Source: Eledone cirrhosa (taxonomy: Eukaryota). From it: a stretch of 64,000 nucleotides of DNA. Each line of letters starts with the position of its first letter. The stretch's first letter is position 1. The DNA lies in the NCBI GenBank assembly GCA_964016885.1, contig OZ024759.1:20088001-20152000 (forward strand), written 5' to 3'. The position numbers were made by a program, and so were the translations under genes. Below are positions 6,115 to 47,542 of the stretch, one piece after another. The notes beneath the pieces are model-generated. The model worked only from the letters and a program-made list of their open reading frames with translations. It searched no databases and had not been told where the DNA came from.

Positions 6115-6179
6115 TATTTTATCTGATGAAAGCGTACCAATGTTGTCTTGGTTACCCTTGAAATATATATAATAAAATA
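6115..6179 (+). ncRNA. Type I hammerhead ribozyme motif (family H1)
   Basis: TATTTTAT-CTGATGA-AAGCGTACCAA..TTGGTTACCCTT-GAAA-TATATA-TA-ATAAAATA; 8 bp stem I; predicted cleavage after 6171. Confidence 0.8.
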
Positions 6180-6240
6180 AATATGGTTTTATAAATATAG
6201 TTTCCATTTATTTAATATCATTATATATATATATATATAT

Positions 6241-6577
6241 CATCATCATTTCATTTTACGTCCGCTTTTCCCTGCTTGCAAGGGTGGGACGGGAACTGAT
6301 TCTGGCTTGATTTCTACAGCTGGATGCCCTTCCTAACACCAACCTCATTTACAGTGAGTGCTGGGTGCTTTTTTGCCATGGCGCCTCCACGACCACTTTG
6401 CAGTGGAATGATATGGACCCCAGTCCCTATCATCTCATTTCTACAGCTGAGTAAACTGGAGCAATGTGAAATAAAGTGTCTTGCTCAAGGAAACAACACA
6501 TCACCTGGTCTGAGAATTGAACTCACAACCTTACGATTGCAAGGCCAATGCTCTAATCACTAAGCCATGTGCCTCCA
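6241..6577 (-). mobile_element. SINE family A copy
   Basis: Full-length reverse copy within (TA)n. Confidence 0.9.
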
Positions 6578-6701
6578 TATATATATATATATAAATTATT
6601 TGTCTCTAGCATTCAATGAAGAGAAGCAACTAAATATTAAACTTAAGCCAAAATCTTGATATATATATATATATAAAGGGAGGAAGACATTGATAGGTTT
6701 A

Positions 6702-6754
<53 letters not shown>

Positions 6755-7109
6755 AAGTATTGCACCAAAAACAATATAAAACGTTGGCGTGAAGAAGATT
6801 AGGAATTTATTTGCTTTAATATAATGTTTCCATGTTTATTATAATTGTCTACATATGGTAACTACAATATATATATTGTTCAATCATTTGCAATAATTAA
6901 TTATCTATTACTCTTCATCAGAAAGCCTATAGTAGTGGAAGTCAACTATTAACTATGCAGTGCAATTCAGCATTCATATATATATATATATAGTAAAAAC
7001 TTGGTAAAAATACTTAAAGGGTCAGAACATTCTGTTAGTGAGACGAGTTGTGAAATACAGTTAAATTGCAATCATTGCACTAATCTAATTTAATCATATA
7101 TATATATAT

Positions 7110-7480
7110 CCACACTGTAAAGCAGTTGTGTACATGTGATGACAAAAGCGCCCAGTCCACATTGTGAGTGGTTGTGTAGGTGTCACGACAAAAAGCACTC
7201 AGCCCACACTGTAAAGTGGTTGTGTAGGTGTCATGACAAAAGCACCCAGTCCACACTGTAAAGCGGTTCTGTAGTTGTCACGACAAATAGCACCCAGCCC
7301 ACACTGTAAAGCGGTTATGTAGGTGTCACAACAAAAATCACCCAGTCCACACTGTCAATGTGGTTAACGTCAGGAAGGGCATCCAGCCATAGAAAACCAG
7401 CCAGAAACACTCCTATATGAGCAAGACATGGTCACCCAACCCAACTTGCCTCTAAATGGGACAAACCTGTCTAACCAATG
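7110..7480 (+). mobile_element. SINE-A-related element with internal ~48 bp repeats
   Basis: aggaagggcatccagcc motif; relatives at ~32555-32810 (-), ~33315-33500 (-) and ~57330-57575 (+). Confidence 0.65.
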
Positions 7481-7489
7481 CGTACACCA

Positions 7490-9082
7490 CAGCCTTAGGT
7501 ATATTTAACACCTGTAGTAAGGTTCTCGCTGTGCCAAGCAAATCAGCTTTCTGTAGAGTCAGGTGATTCAGCCTGAATATTCAATACTTTCAACCACCCA
7601 TTCAAACTTTTGGTCATTTTATTCTAAGGTATATGTAGCACCTTTTTGAAGGTTCTTGCTGTGCCAAGCAAACAAGCATTTCTATTCAAACTTTTGGCCA
7701 TTTTATTCTAAGGTATATGTAGCACCTTTTTGAAGGTTCTTGCTGTGCCAAGCAAACAAACATTTCTATTCAAACTTTTGGCCATTTTATTCTAAGGTAT
7801 ATGTAGCACCTTTTTGAAGGTTCTTGCTGTGCCAAGCAAACAAGCATTTCTATTCAAACTTTTGGCCATTTTATTCTAAGGTATATGTAGCACCTTTTTG
7901 AAGGTTCTTGCTGTGCCAAGCAAACAAACATTTCTATTCAAACTTTTGGCCATTTTATTCTAAGGTATATGTAGCACCTTTTTGAAGGTTCTTGCTGTGC
8001 CAAGCAAACAAGCATTTCTATTCAAACTTTTGGCCATTTTATTCTAAGGTATATGTAGCACCTTTTTGAAGGTTCTTGCTGTGCCAAGCAAACAAACATT
8101 TCTATTCAAACTTTTGGCCATTTTATTCTAAGGTATATGTAGCACCTTTTTGAAGGTTCTTGCTGTGCCAAGCAAACAAGCATTTCTATTCAAACTTTTG
8201 GCCATTTTATTCTAAGGTATATGTAGCACCTTTTTGAAGGTTCTTGCTGTGCCAAGCAAACAAACATTTCTATTCAAACTTTTGGCCATTTTATTCTAAG
8301 GTATATGTAGCACCTTTTTGAAGGTTCTTGCTGTGCCAAGCAAACAAATATTTCTATTCAAACTTTTGGCCATTTTATTCTAAGGTATATGTAGCACCTT
8401 TTTGAAGGTTCTTGCTGTGCCAAGCAAACAAGCATTTCTATTCAAACTTTTGGCCATTTTATTCTAAGGTATATGTAGCACCTTTTTGAAGGTTCTTGCT
8501 GTGCCAAGCAAACAAACATTTCTATTCAAACTTTTGGCCATTTTATTCTAAGGTATATGTAGCACCTTTTTGAAGGTTCTTGCTGTGCCAAGCAAACAAG
8601 CATTTCTATTCAAACTTTTGGCCATTTTATTCTAAGGTATATGTAGCACCTTTTTGAAGGTTCTTGCTGTGCCAAGCAAACAAACATTTCTATTCAAACT
8701 TTTGGCCATTTTATTCTAAGGTATATGTAGCACCTTTTTGAAGGTTCTTGCTGTGTCAAGCAAACAAGCATTTCTATTCAAACTTTTGGCCATTGTATTC
8801 TAAGGTATGTTTAGTACCTTTTGTAATGTTCTTGCTAAGCCAAACAAACAGATGTTTCTGTAGAGTCAGGAAATCCAACTTTAATACCCAACTTCATCAA
8901 CCAACCTTTCAGTATTCCAACCCCTAGCCACTCATCCCTAAAGCCCCTAATACAATTGGGATGATAATAACTCTATAGCCATTCCTGGTTCTCTGTATTC
9001 TGTATTTCCGGTCTTGGAACTTTCCTATTTCCTCACATTCTTTGTCTACTTCTCTCGTATCAAATGAGCAAGCAACATCAAT
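7490..9082 (-). mobile_element. R4/Dong-type non-LTR retrotransposon 3' remnant (restriction-like endonuclease end)
   Basis: Minus strand encodes DVACSFDTREVDKECEEIGKFQD...IIPIVLGALG and LQKADLLGTARTLLQVL, the REL C-terminal signature. Confidence 0.75.
7601..8860. repeat. 84 bp minisatellite, ~15 copies, derived from the R4/Dong 3' end
   Basis: ttcaaactttt recurs at 7601, 7685, 7769 and onward; alternating aagcatt/aaacatt variants. Confidence 0.95.
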
Positions 9083-45036: not shown

Positions 45037-45076
<40 letters not shown>

Positions 45077-45540
45077 CATACACTCAGATACTCACACACG
45101 CACACATACACACACACACACAGAAGTAGGAATATATATTCCATAAGACACAGCAGAAAAAATATTTTTTGTGAGAGAGAAATTTTCAGCAGACAATTCA
45201 ATGAATCTAACAAAATAACTACAACAACAACAACAACAACAACAAAACAACACCAATAAGCACAATAATAATAATAGCAATAATAACAATAATAACAAAT
45301 AAAAACAATAATAACAATAATAATAAGAAGAAGAATAATAAATTTGTATTCAGAAAATTTATAATTCAATATGATTAATGAAAACAGTTGGACACTAGCA
45401 AATAGAGGCATTACAATAGATTTTGAAATGTATACATACAAATATTTAATGTATATTATTGTTCTGCTCATAAGTGAGCTTGTTTCTGGCAGCAAAATAG
45501 CCAGTCAAACAAAAAAGAAAAGCCACTGAATTACTGAAGT

Positions 45541-46535
45541 CACTGCCTCAGCATGGCCACAGTCTGATTACTGAAACTGCAGTCAAAATTACTGAAGCCA
45601 CTACCCCAGAATGGCCACAGTCTAATTGCAAAATCCACTACCCCAGCATGGCCACAGTCTGACTTCTGAAGCAACAGTCTCATTACAAAATCCACTACCC
45701 CAGCATGGCCACAGTCTGACTTCTGAAGCAACAGTCTCATTACAAAATCCACTACTCCAGCATGGCCACAGTCTGACTACTGAAGCAACAGTCTCATTAC
45801 AAAATCCACTACCCCAGCATGGCCACAGTCTGACTTCTGAAGCAACAGTCTCATTACAAAATCCACTACCCCAGCATGGCCACAGTCTGACTTCTGAAGC
45901 AACAGTCTCATTACAAAATCCACTACCCCAGCATGGCCACAGTCTGACTTCTGAAGCAACAGTCTAATTACTAAAGCCAATGCCCCAGCTTGGCCACAAT
46001 CTAATTACTAAAGCCAATGCCCCAGCTTGGCCACAATCTAATTACTAAAGCCAATGCCCCAGCTTGGCCACAATCTAATTACTAAAGCCAATGCCCCAGC
46101 TTGGCCACAATCTAATTACTAAAGCCAATGCTCCAGCTTGGCCACAATCTAATTACTAAAGCCAATGCTCCAGCTTGGCCACAATCTAATTACTAAAGCC
46201 AATGCTCCAGCTTGGCCACAATCTAATTACTAAAGCCAATGCTCCAGCTTGGCCACAATCTAATTACTAAAGCCAATGCTCCAGCTTGGCCACAATCTAA
46301 TTACTAAAGCCAATGCCCCAGCTTGGCCACAATCTAATTACTAAAGCCAATGCCCCAGCTTGGCCGCAATCTAATTACTAAAGCCAATGCCCCAGCTTGG
46401 CCACAATCTAATTACTAAAGCCAATGCCCCAGCTTGGCCACAATCTAATTACTAAAGCCAATGCCCCAGCATGGCTACAGGTTAAATTCTCAAACCACTA
46501 CCCCAGCATGGCCACAGTCTAATTACAGAAGCCAG
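45541..46535. repeat. Adjacent 57 bp and 34 bp minisatellites sharing ccccagc(a/t)tggccaca
   Basis: Directly visible; unit length switches at ~45965. Confidence 0.9.
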
Positions 46536-46614
46536 TAAAAAAAACAAACAACAAAATATATATATATATGTACAATATATTAATAAATGGAAACTATATT
46601 TATAAAACCATAAT

Positions 46615-46679
46615 TATTTTATTATATATATTTCAAGGGCAACCAAGCCAATCTTGGTGCGCTTTCATCAGATAAAATA
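46615..46679 (-). ncRNA. Hammerhead motif H1 (left arm of second palindrome)
   Basis: Intact core; partner starting at 46828 is split by a SINE. Confidence 0.75.
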
Positions 46680-46883
46680 CAAAATTTGTTTTATAAATAG
46701 TGACATAACCATGGAAAACAACCTTGACGGTTGAAAATTCACTGGATAGTGAAAAGACTGTCTAGCGAAATTTCAACCGTCAAGGTTGTTTTCCATGGTT
46801 ATGTCACTATTTATAAAACAAATTTTGTATTTTATCTGATGAAAGCGCACCAAGTTTGGCTTGGTTGCCCTTGAAATATATAT

Positions 46884-47070
46884 AATTGTTTCTACTTTTG
46901 GCACAAGGCCAGCAATTACCCAGTGCATTACTGGTACTTTATTTAATCGACCCCGTAAGGATGAAAGGCAAAGTCAACCTCGGCGGGATTTGAACTCAGA
47001 TCGCAAAGGGACGTAACTATGCTGGAAAGCATGGCGTCCGACCCTCTACCGATACTGCCAATCCACCGCC
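46884..47070 (-). mobile_element. SINE family B copy inserted into a hammerhead motif
   Basis: TSD ttgaaatatatataat at 46871-46886 and 47072-47087. Confidence 0.9.
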
Positions 47071-47542
47071 ATTGAAATATATATAATAAAATAATTATGG
47101 TTTTATAAATATAGTTTCCATTTATTAATATATTGAATATTTACTCCAGTATACTGTTGAGTGCTCTATATCAGTTATAAACTTTTAAGTTTGTTGGAAT
47201 CCCAACAAATTAAATATAACTTCTACATATATATATATATATAGGATAGCCATGGTATCTAAGATGAAAAAGTGCGCGCGGACCTTCATCATCAGGTGAC
47301 AAATAAAGCAAAAGCAGTAAAAATAGGGGTAACGAGCAAACAAGCAGTTATTATAGTGAGACATGGTAACGAAAGAGAGATTATGCAGCGCGTAGAGATG
47401 TATTGGAATTCAAGTATTGCCAGTTTTTGTTATTGGAAGAAACTGGCAGGAGGTGGAACTTGTAAATGTGAAAAACAAAAATACACATACACTCGTGTAT
47501 GTGTGTATGTGTGTGTATATATGTCTGTGTGTGTGTGTTTTC

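What the first reader, a model, noticed from the sequence alone, without database searches (positions are those of the whole stretch)
6115..47228. Family H1 recurs at four loci with a compensatory change in stem II
Seen: the same unit at ~5800-6222, ~25645-25838, ~38820-38960 and ~46573-47228. Stem II is AAGCG-T-ACCA..TGGTT-A-CCCTT at 6130 but AAGCG-C-ACCA..TGGTT-G-CCCTT at 46843 and in the 25685-25745 copy, a U-A to C-G swap. The stem II loop varies in length and sequence while CUGAUGA and GAAA are invariant. Inference: selection on RNA structure in the source elements.
Basis: partly seen in the sequence, partly recalled or inferred. Interest (0 to 1): 0.75.

Follow-up and report, generated by a model that had tools for sequence, protein, structure and literature searches.

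The report
Hammerhead ends of Hydra-clade Penelope retrotransposon
The four repeats are short end pieces of a very abundant Penelope-type jumping gene; they carry a hammerhead-shaped RNA motif, predicted to cut itself, whose paired bases change together between subfamilies, so its fold was likely selected in the parent elements, an arrangement already described in other animals.

Summary
Observation confirmed. Six hammerhead-core arms lie at the four loci, two of them as head-to-head pairs with a one-sided tail; a fifth locus was missed. They are pseudo-LTR stumps of a Hydra-clade Penelope-like retrotransposon: a full element (pLTR, RT plus GIY-YIG, pLTR) was found and 22 of 41 endonuclease loci have the motif downstream. 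Two patterns give about 55,000 matches, controls 0. The U-A/C-G swap is real (C-G 2,600, U·G 298, U-A 167, C×A 69), but alone it is one or two events. Across 28 subfamily representatives five helix II pairs are canonical in 135 of 140 cells and the palindromic helix III in 112 of 112. Inserted copies decay as fast in the core as elsewhere, so selection was in the source elements. No tandem arrays; cutting and expression untested. Hydra elements with hammerheads, including an octopus one, are published, and the scan met such stumps before on other octopus DNA. Not found in my searches: an invariant C·pyrimidine mismatch in helix II and a pile-up of 5' ends at one site.

The parts
5800..6052 (-). 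Locus 1, long arm: pLTR stump with hammerhead and the about 85-nt 3' tail (5800-5882), ending in (TA)n
   Evidence: 96.7% identical over 244 nt to the pLTR downstream of an endonuclease in L126
5935..5999 (-). Type I hammerhead motif, U-A subfamily (C3 at 5991, helix II 5984-5955, G12 5954, palindrome 5951-5944, A17 5943)
   Evidence: same helix II letters as the + arm
6062..6222 (+). Locus 1, short arm: inverted copy without tail, ending 50 nt behind the predicted cleavage site in (TA)n
6115..6179 (+). Type I hammerhead motif: helix I 6115-6122 with 6172-6179, CUGAUGA 6123-6129, helix II 6130-6159 (C·C at its fourth position, U-A at its sixth), GAA 6160-6162, palindromic helix III ATATATAT 6163-6170, A17 6171; predicted cut 6171/6172
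   Evidence: sequence; pairs counted; distal extension of helix I
25643..25812 (-). Locus 2, short arm with hammerhead (C3 25737, C-G at II.6, 5-nt loop, helix III ATATGTAT)
25811..25838 (+). Locus 2, remnant of the long arm: last 28 nt of the tail, joined head to head
   Evidence: (match to 47200-47235)
38798..38964 (+). Locus 3, single short arm with hammerhead (C3 38865, helix II 38872-38902, helix III ATATGTAT 38906-38913)
   Evidence: 96.6% identical over 175 nt to the 3' pLTR of the RT- and endonuclease-bearing copy L188
46573..46750 (-). Locus 4, short arm with hammerhead (C3 46671), starting at CACTATCCAG
46757..46886 (+). Locus 4, long arm, first part: CUGAUGA 46836-46842, helix II 46843-46872, helix III 46876-46883, A17 46884
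46887..47071 (.). Later SINE-like insertion at the predicted cleavage site, 16-nt target duplication; separates the core from the 3' strand of helix I
   Evidence: the same repeat has over 20 further matches in the window
47072..47228 (+). Locus 4, long arm, second part: 3' strand of helix I, short-end site and tail, ending in (TA)n
26878..27120 (.).

Best explanation
The repeats are short end pieces (pseudo-LTRs) of a Hydra-clade Penelope-like retrotransposon and carry a type I hammerhead motif whose base pairs change together between subfamilies, so the fold was likely selected in the RNA of the active parent elements while the inserted copies decay. Shown: the same pLTR flanks an RT plus GIY-YIG reading frame elsewhere in the genome; copies end at one of two fixed points behind the motif, in (TA)n; head-to-head pairs carry the tail on one arm. 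Inferred, by analogy with the lizard Poseidon element: the element's protein nicks both strands of a (TA)n tract and starts reverse transcription at two internal sites of the RNA, about 50 and 135 nt behind the hammerhead, which gives a short and a long arm. The template was likely uncut, because copies run through the cleavage site. Many copies stop at CACTATCCAG, likely the RNA's 5' end. The motif would cut poorly alone: helix III is an 8-nt palindrome that can pair only between two motifs, so cutting is predicted to need two pLTRs, the element's protein, or both, and would trim or control the transcript rather than make the template.
For: Full element L121: hammerhead 1755, RT and endonuclease pieces 2002-4071, hammerhead 5431, all +; a second with both pLTRs, L176. 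22 of 41 endonuclease loci (21 of 40 without the query's own) have a same-strand hammerhead of the window's type 1.4-3.0 kb downstream, against about 3% expected from genome density; 11 have an inverted one upstream. Hydra motifs RW[R/K], DKT, CxCx5C, CxxC and CxH present, no Cys pair between GIY and YIG; GIY-YIG Pfam E 1.5e-4. Covariation. II.6 counts. Neutral decay. 3' ends: 127 short, 102 long, 17 other of 246. 39 of 45 head-to-head pairs have a tail on exactly one arm. None of 20 core-less copies starts cleanly at the cleavage site in a way that microhomology would not explain. 5' ends: 93 of 167 within 70-99 nt of the core; 23 of 70 start at the motif in loci picked by pattern only. Published parallels: PMC8557442, PMC4209133, PMC11167929, PMC3846280.
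Against: No cleavage, expression or start-site data. No Rfam hammerhead match at gathering score or at E up to 10. Monomer folds are no more stable than shuffles (z +0.24 to -1.60 for the window arms). Helix I shows no excess over its shuffle (191 of 196 against 190, p 0.24). In one search, 39 of 500 shuffles reach the number of doubly changed pairs and 395 of 500 the number of pair types; the shuffles ignore relatedness, and I chose the representatives from pattern hits that already required the core. The tree is short (173 columns; 31 of 54 inner branches under 80). The GIY-YIG score is just under Pfam's cut-off and the RT has no Pfam match; clade assignment rests on motifs, not on an RT tree. 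The window itself holds no piece of the reading frame. All long copies examined closely (L121, L131, L132) are broken or truncated.
Confidence: 0.88

Rival explanations
1. Non-LTR retrozyme: a small non-coding repeat that is cut to unit length by its hammerheads, circularised and re-inserted.
For: Tens of thousands of short, frame-less copies with a type I motif; retrozymes are described in molluscs (PMC7229834, passages) and derive from PLE ends (bioRxiv 10.64898/2026.07.22.740005, parts 1-2 of 5).
Against: No same-subfamily head-to-tail repeat among 14 same-strand neighbours under 500 nt, against 45 head-to-head pairs. The unit is contiguous with the 3' end of an RT-endonuclease frame. Copies have fixed ends that do not coincide with the cleavage site.
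Confidence: 0.05
2. The covariation is inherited drift: a few subfamily founders fixed transitions that happen to keep pairing, with no selection on the fold.
For: Nearly all changes in helix II are transitions, which in purine-pyrimidine pairs keep pairing half of the time.
Against: Both-side changes at five helix II and two helix III pairs; swaps at II.2, II.5 and II.6 appear on separate branches; C×A at II.6 occurs only as 69 scattered mutants, 2.6% of C copies; the core is invariant between subfamilies except N7 while loop 2 changes freely.
Confidence: 0.04
3. A DNA hairpin element (MITE-like), the palindrome being the functional unit and the hammerhead match incidental.
For: Loci 1 and 4 are near-perfect palindromes in TA tracts.
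Against: Arms are unequal with a one-sided tail, centres differ from copy to copy, many copies are single arms, and the unit also stands in direct orientation around an RT frame.
Confidence: 0.01
4. The motif is selected as a fold but no longer cuts: it serves as a binding or pairing site for the element's protein or for a second RNA.
For: Templates were uncut; in the lizard element catalytic mutants insert normally in vitro (PMC11167929); helix III stays self-complementary in 28 of 28 representatives.
Against: Every catalytic core position except N7 is invariant across subfamilies that differ widely elsewhere, though my patterns required most of them; the lizard motif cuts when protein is present.
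Confidence: 0.12

Closest known systems
Hydra clade of Penelope-like elements (Craig et al. 2021, PMC8557442; read: abstract, introduction, Hydra section, passages, supplement part 2 of 59), including Hydra-1_Obim from Octopus bimaculoides
   Same: C-terminal GIY-YIG without CCHH, CxCx5C linker, RW[K/R] and DKT motifs, C-terminal CxxC and CxH, (TA)n targets, type I hammerhead near the 3' end with a short palindromic helix III, inverted 5'-truncated copy and one-sided tail.
   Different: The listed Hydra-1_oBim hammerhead has other helices (7-bp helix II, acca-a-tggt helix III) and is another family. Elements here are about 3.7-4.1 kb from motif to motif with a 1.1-1.3 kb 3' UTR (listed ones under about 3 kb), the tail is about 85 nt (30-40 described), helix II has a fixed C·pyrimidine mismatch, and there are over 50,000 matches.
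[quoted passage not shown]
   Same: In pLTRs; long helix II; palindromic helix III implying dimers; many consensus families per genome 'full of covariations'; pairs on opposite strands 100-700 bp apart; most copies without a reading frame.
   Different: No extra nucleotide between A9 and 10.1; pair 10.1-11.1 is mostly A-U or G·U, not G-C; helix III is 8 nt, not absent; helix I is 8 bp and continues beyond an internal loop.
Poseidon element of Anolis carolinensis (Frangieh et al. 2024, PMC11167929; read parts 1-3 of 4)
   Same: Two fixed 3' ends behind the hammerhead that define the tail; AT-rich targets; uncut RNA as template.
   Different: Other clade; there the reading frame starts inside the hammerhead, here about 230 nt behind it (L121); the mechanism is measured there and only inferred here.
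Non-LTR retrozymes (PMC7229834, passages; bioRxiv 10.64898/2026.07.22.740005, parts 1-2 of 5)
   Same: Small, abundant, non-coding, type I hammerhead, PLE-related.
   Different: Those are head-to-tail tandem arrays expressed as circles; here copies are single or head to head and continuous with an autonomous element.

Membership tests
Type I hammerhead ribozyme | Core C3 U4 G5 A6 N7 G8 A9, G12 A13 A14, A15.1-U16.1, H17 | tested here: met
   6 of 6 window arms; 28 of 28 representatives, H17 = A; the search patterns required most core letters
Type I hammerhead ribozyme | Helix II supported by covariation | tested here: met
   135 of 140 cells, five pairs changed on both sides; not corrected for phylogeny, recurrence read from a tree
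Type I hammerhead ribozyme | Open helix I | tested here: met
   8 bp, 96.9% of cells paired, mostly wobble changes, one double change; no excess over shuffle; absent locally in the 46836 arm
Type I hammerhead ribozyme | Helix III | tested here: met
   Self-complementary octamer in 28 of 28 (ATATATAT, ATATGTAT, ATGCGCAT, ATACGTAT); does not fold within one strand, self-duplex -2.2 to -10.5 kcal/mol
Type I hammerhead ribozyme | Match to an Rfam hammerhead model | tested here: not met
   a library miss, not a defining feature of the fold
Type I hammerhead ribozyme | Self-cleavage after H17 | not testable with these tools
   needs an assay
EN+ Penelope-like element | One frame with RT and GIY-YIG between pLTRs | tested here: met
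   L121, L176; YRDD motif; GIY-YIG 22.4 bits, cut-off 22.6; frames are broken
EN+ Penelope-like element | 5'-truncated copies, inverted 5' copy, one-sided tail | tested here: met
EN+ Penelope-like element | RT phylogeny within PLEs | not tested
   no reference RT set was fetched
Hydra clade | RWK-type and DKT motifs | tested here: met
   LRWRAF and SDKTNN in L121; MRWKA in L132
Hydra clade | CxCx5C linker; no CCHH; CxxC and CxH around the conserved E and N | tested here: met
   CNCRIKSNC, VVYKC..YVG with one Cys, CNLC, CKH (definition)
Hydra clade | Insertion into (TA)n; hammerhead present | tested here: met
Hydra clade | Generally under 3 kb | tested here: not met
   3.68 kb (L121) and 4.10 kb (L176) between hammerheads; described as a tendency, not a criterion
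Non-LTR retrozyme | Head-to-tail tandem units each with a hammerhead | tested here: not met
   0 same-subfamily direct neighbours among 14; 45 head-to-head pairs (loci held, not the whole genome)
Non-LTR retrozyme | Circular RNA expressed | not testable with these tools
   no RNA run listed

The most novel reading that the evidence does not exclude
This family is a distinct hammerhead subtype whose subfamilies record what a Penelope element needs from its ribozyme: a cytosine kept unpaired at the fourth step of helix II (47,237 C·pyrimidine matches against 180 G-C and 174 C-G) that would dock on the internal loop of helix I or on the element's protein, and an 8-nt palindrome that would hold two uncut RNA copies together so that the protein dimer copies one into each nicked strand, making the head-to-head pairs. 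The many stumps would be run-off cDNAs that start near the RNA's 5' end and stop at it, like retroviral strong-stop DNA, with long copies needing read-through or a template jump.
Probability: 0.17. Interest if true: 0.65.

Novelty: new member of a known kind. Interest (0 to 1): 0.3.

Why it matters
What hammerheads do in Penelope elements is an open question (PMC8557442 calls it unclear; PMC11167929 finds cutting dispensable in vitro). This family offers dozens of subfamilies and over 50,000 matches in one genome, which separate selection in the parent elements from decay in copies and point at testable positions: the unpaired C in helix II, the palindrome in helix III, two reverse-transcription start points and one 5' stop. 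The class itself, its covariation and its presence in octopus are published, so the finding as given is ordinary.

Tried and rejected
Intron around the motif: GGTATGT upstream and TTTACTCCAG downstream looked like splice sites, but the CAG is CAC, CAT, CAA or CGG in other subfamilies and instead sits in a small hairpin; not supported, donor left open. Host A-to-I editing as the source of A-to-G changes (lead from note e1-9574549): no A>G excess over T>C on the RNA strand in three subfamilies (10 vs 22, 0 vs 10, 1 vs 23); rejected for the stretch tested. Two arms from unrelated templates: both arms are of one subfamily in 45 of 45 pairs; random pairing of templates rejected. Reading-frame pieces next to some copies (L009/L132, L065/L131, L081, L083) lie beyond a (TA)n boundary and are probably separate insertions of related families; not used as linkage. 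Expression: no RNA holder listed, no evidence either way; three contig sets of unrecorded kind from one sample were laid on L176: loose ends followed by (TA)n at the two 3' ends, no usable splice joint, possibly not independent of the assembly. Minimum-energy folds were uninformative in this AT-rich sequence. Look-ups of earlier notes by place and by sequence gave nothing. A repeat annotation of Octopus vulgaris (PMC13282606, passages) has no word on ribozymes, palindromes or Hydra. Schostak 2008 (PMC2377424, passages) places an initiator and a donor 46 nt apart in Penelope. Paper searches for the helix II mismatch or an octopus hammerhead (listings only unless named above) showed no description; subscription journals, Repbase and Dfam were not searched, figures were not visible, and only part 2 of 59 of the Craig supplement was read.
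Full report
Setting. The window is repeat-rich DNA of a 3.0-Gb genome in 1,796 contigs. That it is an octopus is an inference from size, repeat content and earlier scan notes, not a tool result.

Observation. The letters are as reported. A scan for CUGA-N-GA..GAAA finds six arms of this family: 5991-5951 (-), 6123-6163 (+), 25737-25701 (-), 38865-38906 (+), 46671-46631 (-), 46836-46876 (+). Loci 1 and 4 are head-to-head pairs, 96% complementary over 170 and 130 nt. Read as RNA, each arm is a type I hammerhead: helix I (6115-6122 with 6172-6179), CUGAUGA, a long helix II with a C·C mismatch at its fourth step, GAA, the palindrome AUAUAUAU as helix III, and A17. The 46836 arm is split at A17 by a SINE-like repeat with a 16-nt duplication. 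A fifth pair of a distant subfamily lies at 26878-27120. Rfam has no hammerhead match, and single arms fold no better than shuffles.

Abundance. TTTATCTGATGA-N18-46-GAAATAT has 32,483 matches and a group with helix III ATRCGYAT 22,676, reversed controls 0. These are arms, not insertions.

What it is. L121 (C1:12381500 on) has the motif at 1755 and 5431 on one strand with RT and endonuclease pieces between 2002 and 4071. I searched the genome with 61 residues of this endonuclease (42,604 candidates, 150 scored), fetched 40 of the top hits and found a same-strand hammerhead of the window's type 1.4-3.0 kb downstream in 22 of 41 loci including L121; genome density predicts about 3%. Eleven have an inverted one upstream of the truncated frame, often with the same loop as the downstream one. 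Locus 1 is 96.7% identical to the pLTR behind an endonuclease in L126, locus 3 96.6% to that of L188, locus 4 about 89-92% to L121. The protein has RW[R/K], DKT, YRDD, CxCx5C, no Cys pair between GIY and YIG, and C-terminal CxxC and CxH, the features by which Craig et al. define the Hydra clade (PMC8557442); their supplement lists Hydra-1_Obim and hammerheads for the clade. Pfam gives GIY-YIG at 22.4 bits (cut-off 22.6) and nothing for the RT. No RT tree was made. The window holds no part of the frame.

Insertion anatomy. Of 246 distinct copies with the conserved stretch behind the motif, 127 end about 50 nt behind A17 in a microsatellite, 102 carry a further tail of about 85 nt, 17 were unclassed, several of them tails missed by the rule. 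Among 45 distinct head-to-head pairs, 39 have the tail on exactly one arm, 5 on neither (four show broken tails), 1 on both; there are 3 tail-to-tail and 14 same-strand neighbours, the latter all of different subfamilies. This is the published PLE layout (PMC3846280), and two internal start sites of reverse transcription explain it in the lizard element (PMC11167929). Copies run through the cleavage site, so their templates were uncut or rejoined. 5' ends pile up: 93 of 167 lie 70-99 nt before the core (L001-L030 were picked with a query reaching 66 nt upstream), and 23 of 70 start at CACTATCCAG in loci picked by pattern only, 29 extend past it, 18 are shorter or other (automatic labels with some miscalls). 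An initiator-like TCACT is described in rotifer pLTRs; an AATAAA 10-12 nt upstream in most long copies leaves a processing site as an alternative.

The swap. With the same flanking letters, II.6 is C-G in 2,600 matches, U·G in 298, U-A in 167 and C×A in 69. The U·G copies mostly share the loop of the U-A copies, so they are a subfamily; the C×A copies are spread over all loops, 2.6% of C copies, as decay predicts. This is the expected route through a wobble, but it is one or two events.

Deeper test. From 284 distinct copies I picked 28 real copies, one per stem type, mostly types seen more than once in loci or listings; singletons that looked like decayed members of a larger type were left out. 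Helix II pairs 1, 2, 3, 5, 6 are canonical in 135 of 140 cells (shuffle mean 112, 0 of 20,000 reach it; slid controls 52-64%), helix III in 112 of 112, helix I in 191 of 196 with no excess over shuffle. The tool count gives 91.9% paired, 48 cells and 8 pairs changed on both sides; 0 of 500 shuffles reach the cell count and score, 39 the pair count, 395 the type count. These shuffles ignore relatedness. On a tree of 57 tail-bearing copies built from flanks only (173 columns, 31 of 54 branches weak), II.6 switches between C-G and U-A on two separate branches, II.5 goes to A-U twice and II.2 to G-C twice (my reading). Helix I continues past an internal loop for about 12 bp in most types.

Where selection acts. 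In 49 full copies from the endonuclease-picked loci, 15 of 539 core letters and 207 of 5,271 other conserved letters deviate (2.8% and 3.9%, p = 0.24); 10 of 49 have a damaged core. Inserted copies therefore decay; the constraint is in the lineages that spread.

The mismatch. II.4 is unpaired in 28 of 28 types (C·C 24, C·U 3, C·A 1). Genome-wide C·pyrimidine has 47,237 matches, G-C 180 and C-G 174, scattered over subfamilies in the listed rows. Closing it needs a transversion while neighbours changed by transitions, so part of the stasis may be mutational; but the left C shows no subfamily-level transition either. A tertiary or protein contact is a guess.

How it likely works. Shown: linkage, layout, covariation, decay. 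Inferred: transcription from the pLTR, binding by the element's protein, nicks in (TA)n, reverse transcription from two internal sites on uncut RNA, run-off at the 5' end for most copies. Helix III cannot fold within one strand but pairs between two, as for the dimer-type PLE hammerheads with low activity in vitro (PMC4209133). Cutting would then be conditional and serve trimming or control. It is untested, and no RNA run was listed.

Verdict. A new family of a known kind. Cervera and De la Pena already note families full of compensatory changes and pairs on opposite strands. The scan has met such stumps in this and other octopus genomes (35 notes hold the words). Interest 0.3; the most novel reading has probability 0.17.

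Noticed in passing
window 26878-27120: Head-to-head pair of a distant subfamily of the same hammerhead group (CTGAAGA core, long helix II, helix III ATACGTAT); the - arm has lost G12.
   Followed up: partly
window 12520-12575 (+) and 56520-56590 (-): Two further CUGA-N-GA..GAAA matches with short flanking complementarity; they may be hammerheads of other PLE families.
   Followed up: no
window 46887-47071; L223 about 668: The same SINE-like repeat sits at the helix III / cleavage site in the window and, by its first letters, in L223; probably a liking for AT-rich targets.
   Followed up: partly
L121 1625-1680 and 5300-5355; L050, L126, L184, L188: Long copies carry ATTTGCAT about 50 nt and AATAAA (AATATA in the U-A subfamily) 10-12 nt upstream of CACTATCCAG, where short copies start. 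That ATTTGCAT is the octamer motif is recalled.
   Followed up: partly
L049, L060, L075, L078: Four inverted pairs have U-A in one arm and U·G in the other at II.6. A hand count from the listings up to C3:69 Mb gives 3 discordant against about 22 concordant pairs, more than the roughly 0.6 expected from mutation and far fewer than random pairing; two templates or a hot spot.
   Followed up: partly
window 5860-5882 (-) and 47140-47165 (+): The tail starts with a small hairpin ACTC..GAGT whose inner pairs change between subfamilies (CAG/CTG, CAA/TTG) and holds a second one near its end; candidates for the reverse-transcription start signals.
   Followed up: partly
L005 2019, L014 174, L056 365, L076, L087, L120, L132 1295, L175, L190 8049, L200: At least three unrelated type I hammerhead families (helix III ACTAGT, ACCACTGGT, and a GGTCATAGCC stem) occur in the fetched flanks.
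   Followed up: no
L227 630-760 (-): A copy whose helix I is extended into an almost perfect 38-bp hairpin (z -10.5), perhaps from a template switch or conversion.
   Followed up: no
window 4885-4944: Weak tRNA match (29.6 bits), probably the head of a tRNA-derived SINE.
   Followed up: no
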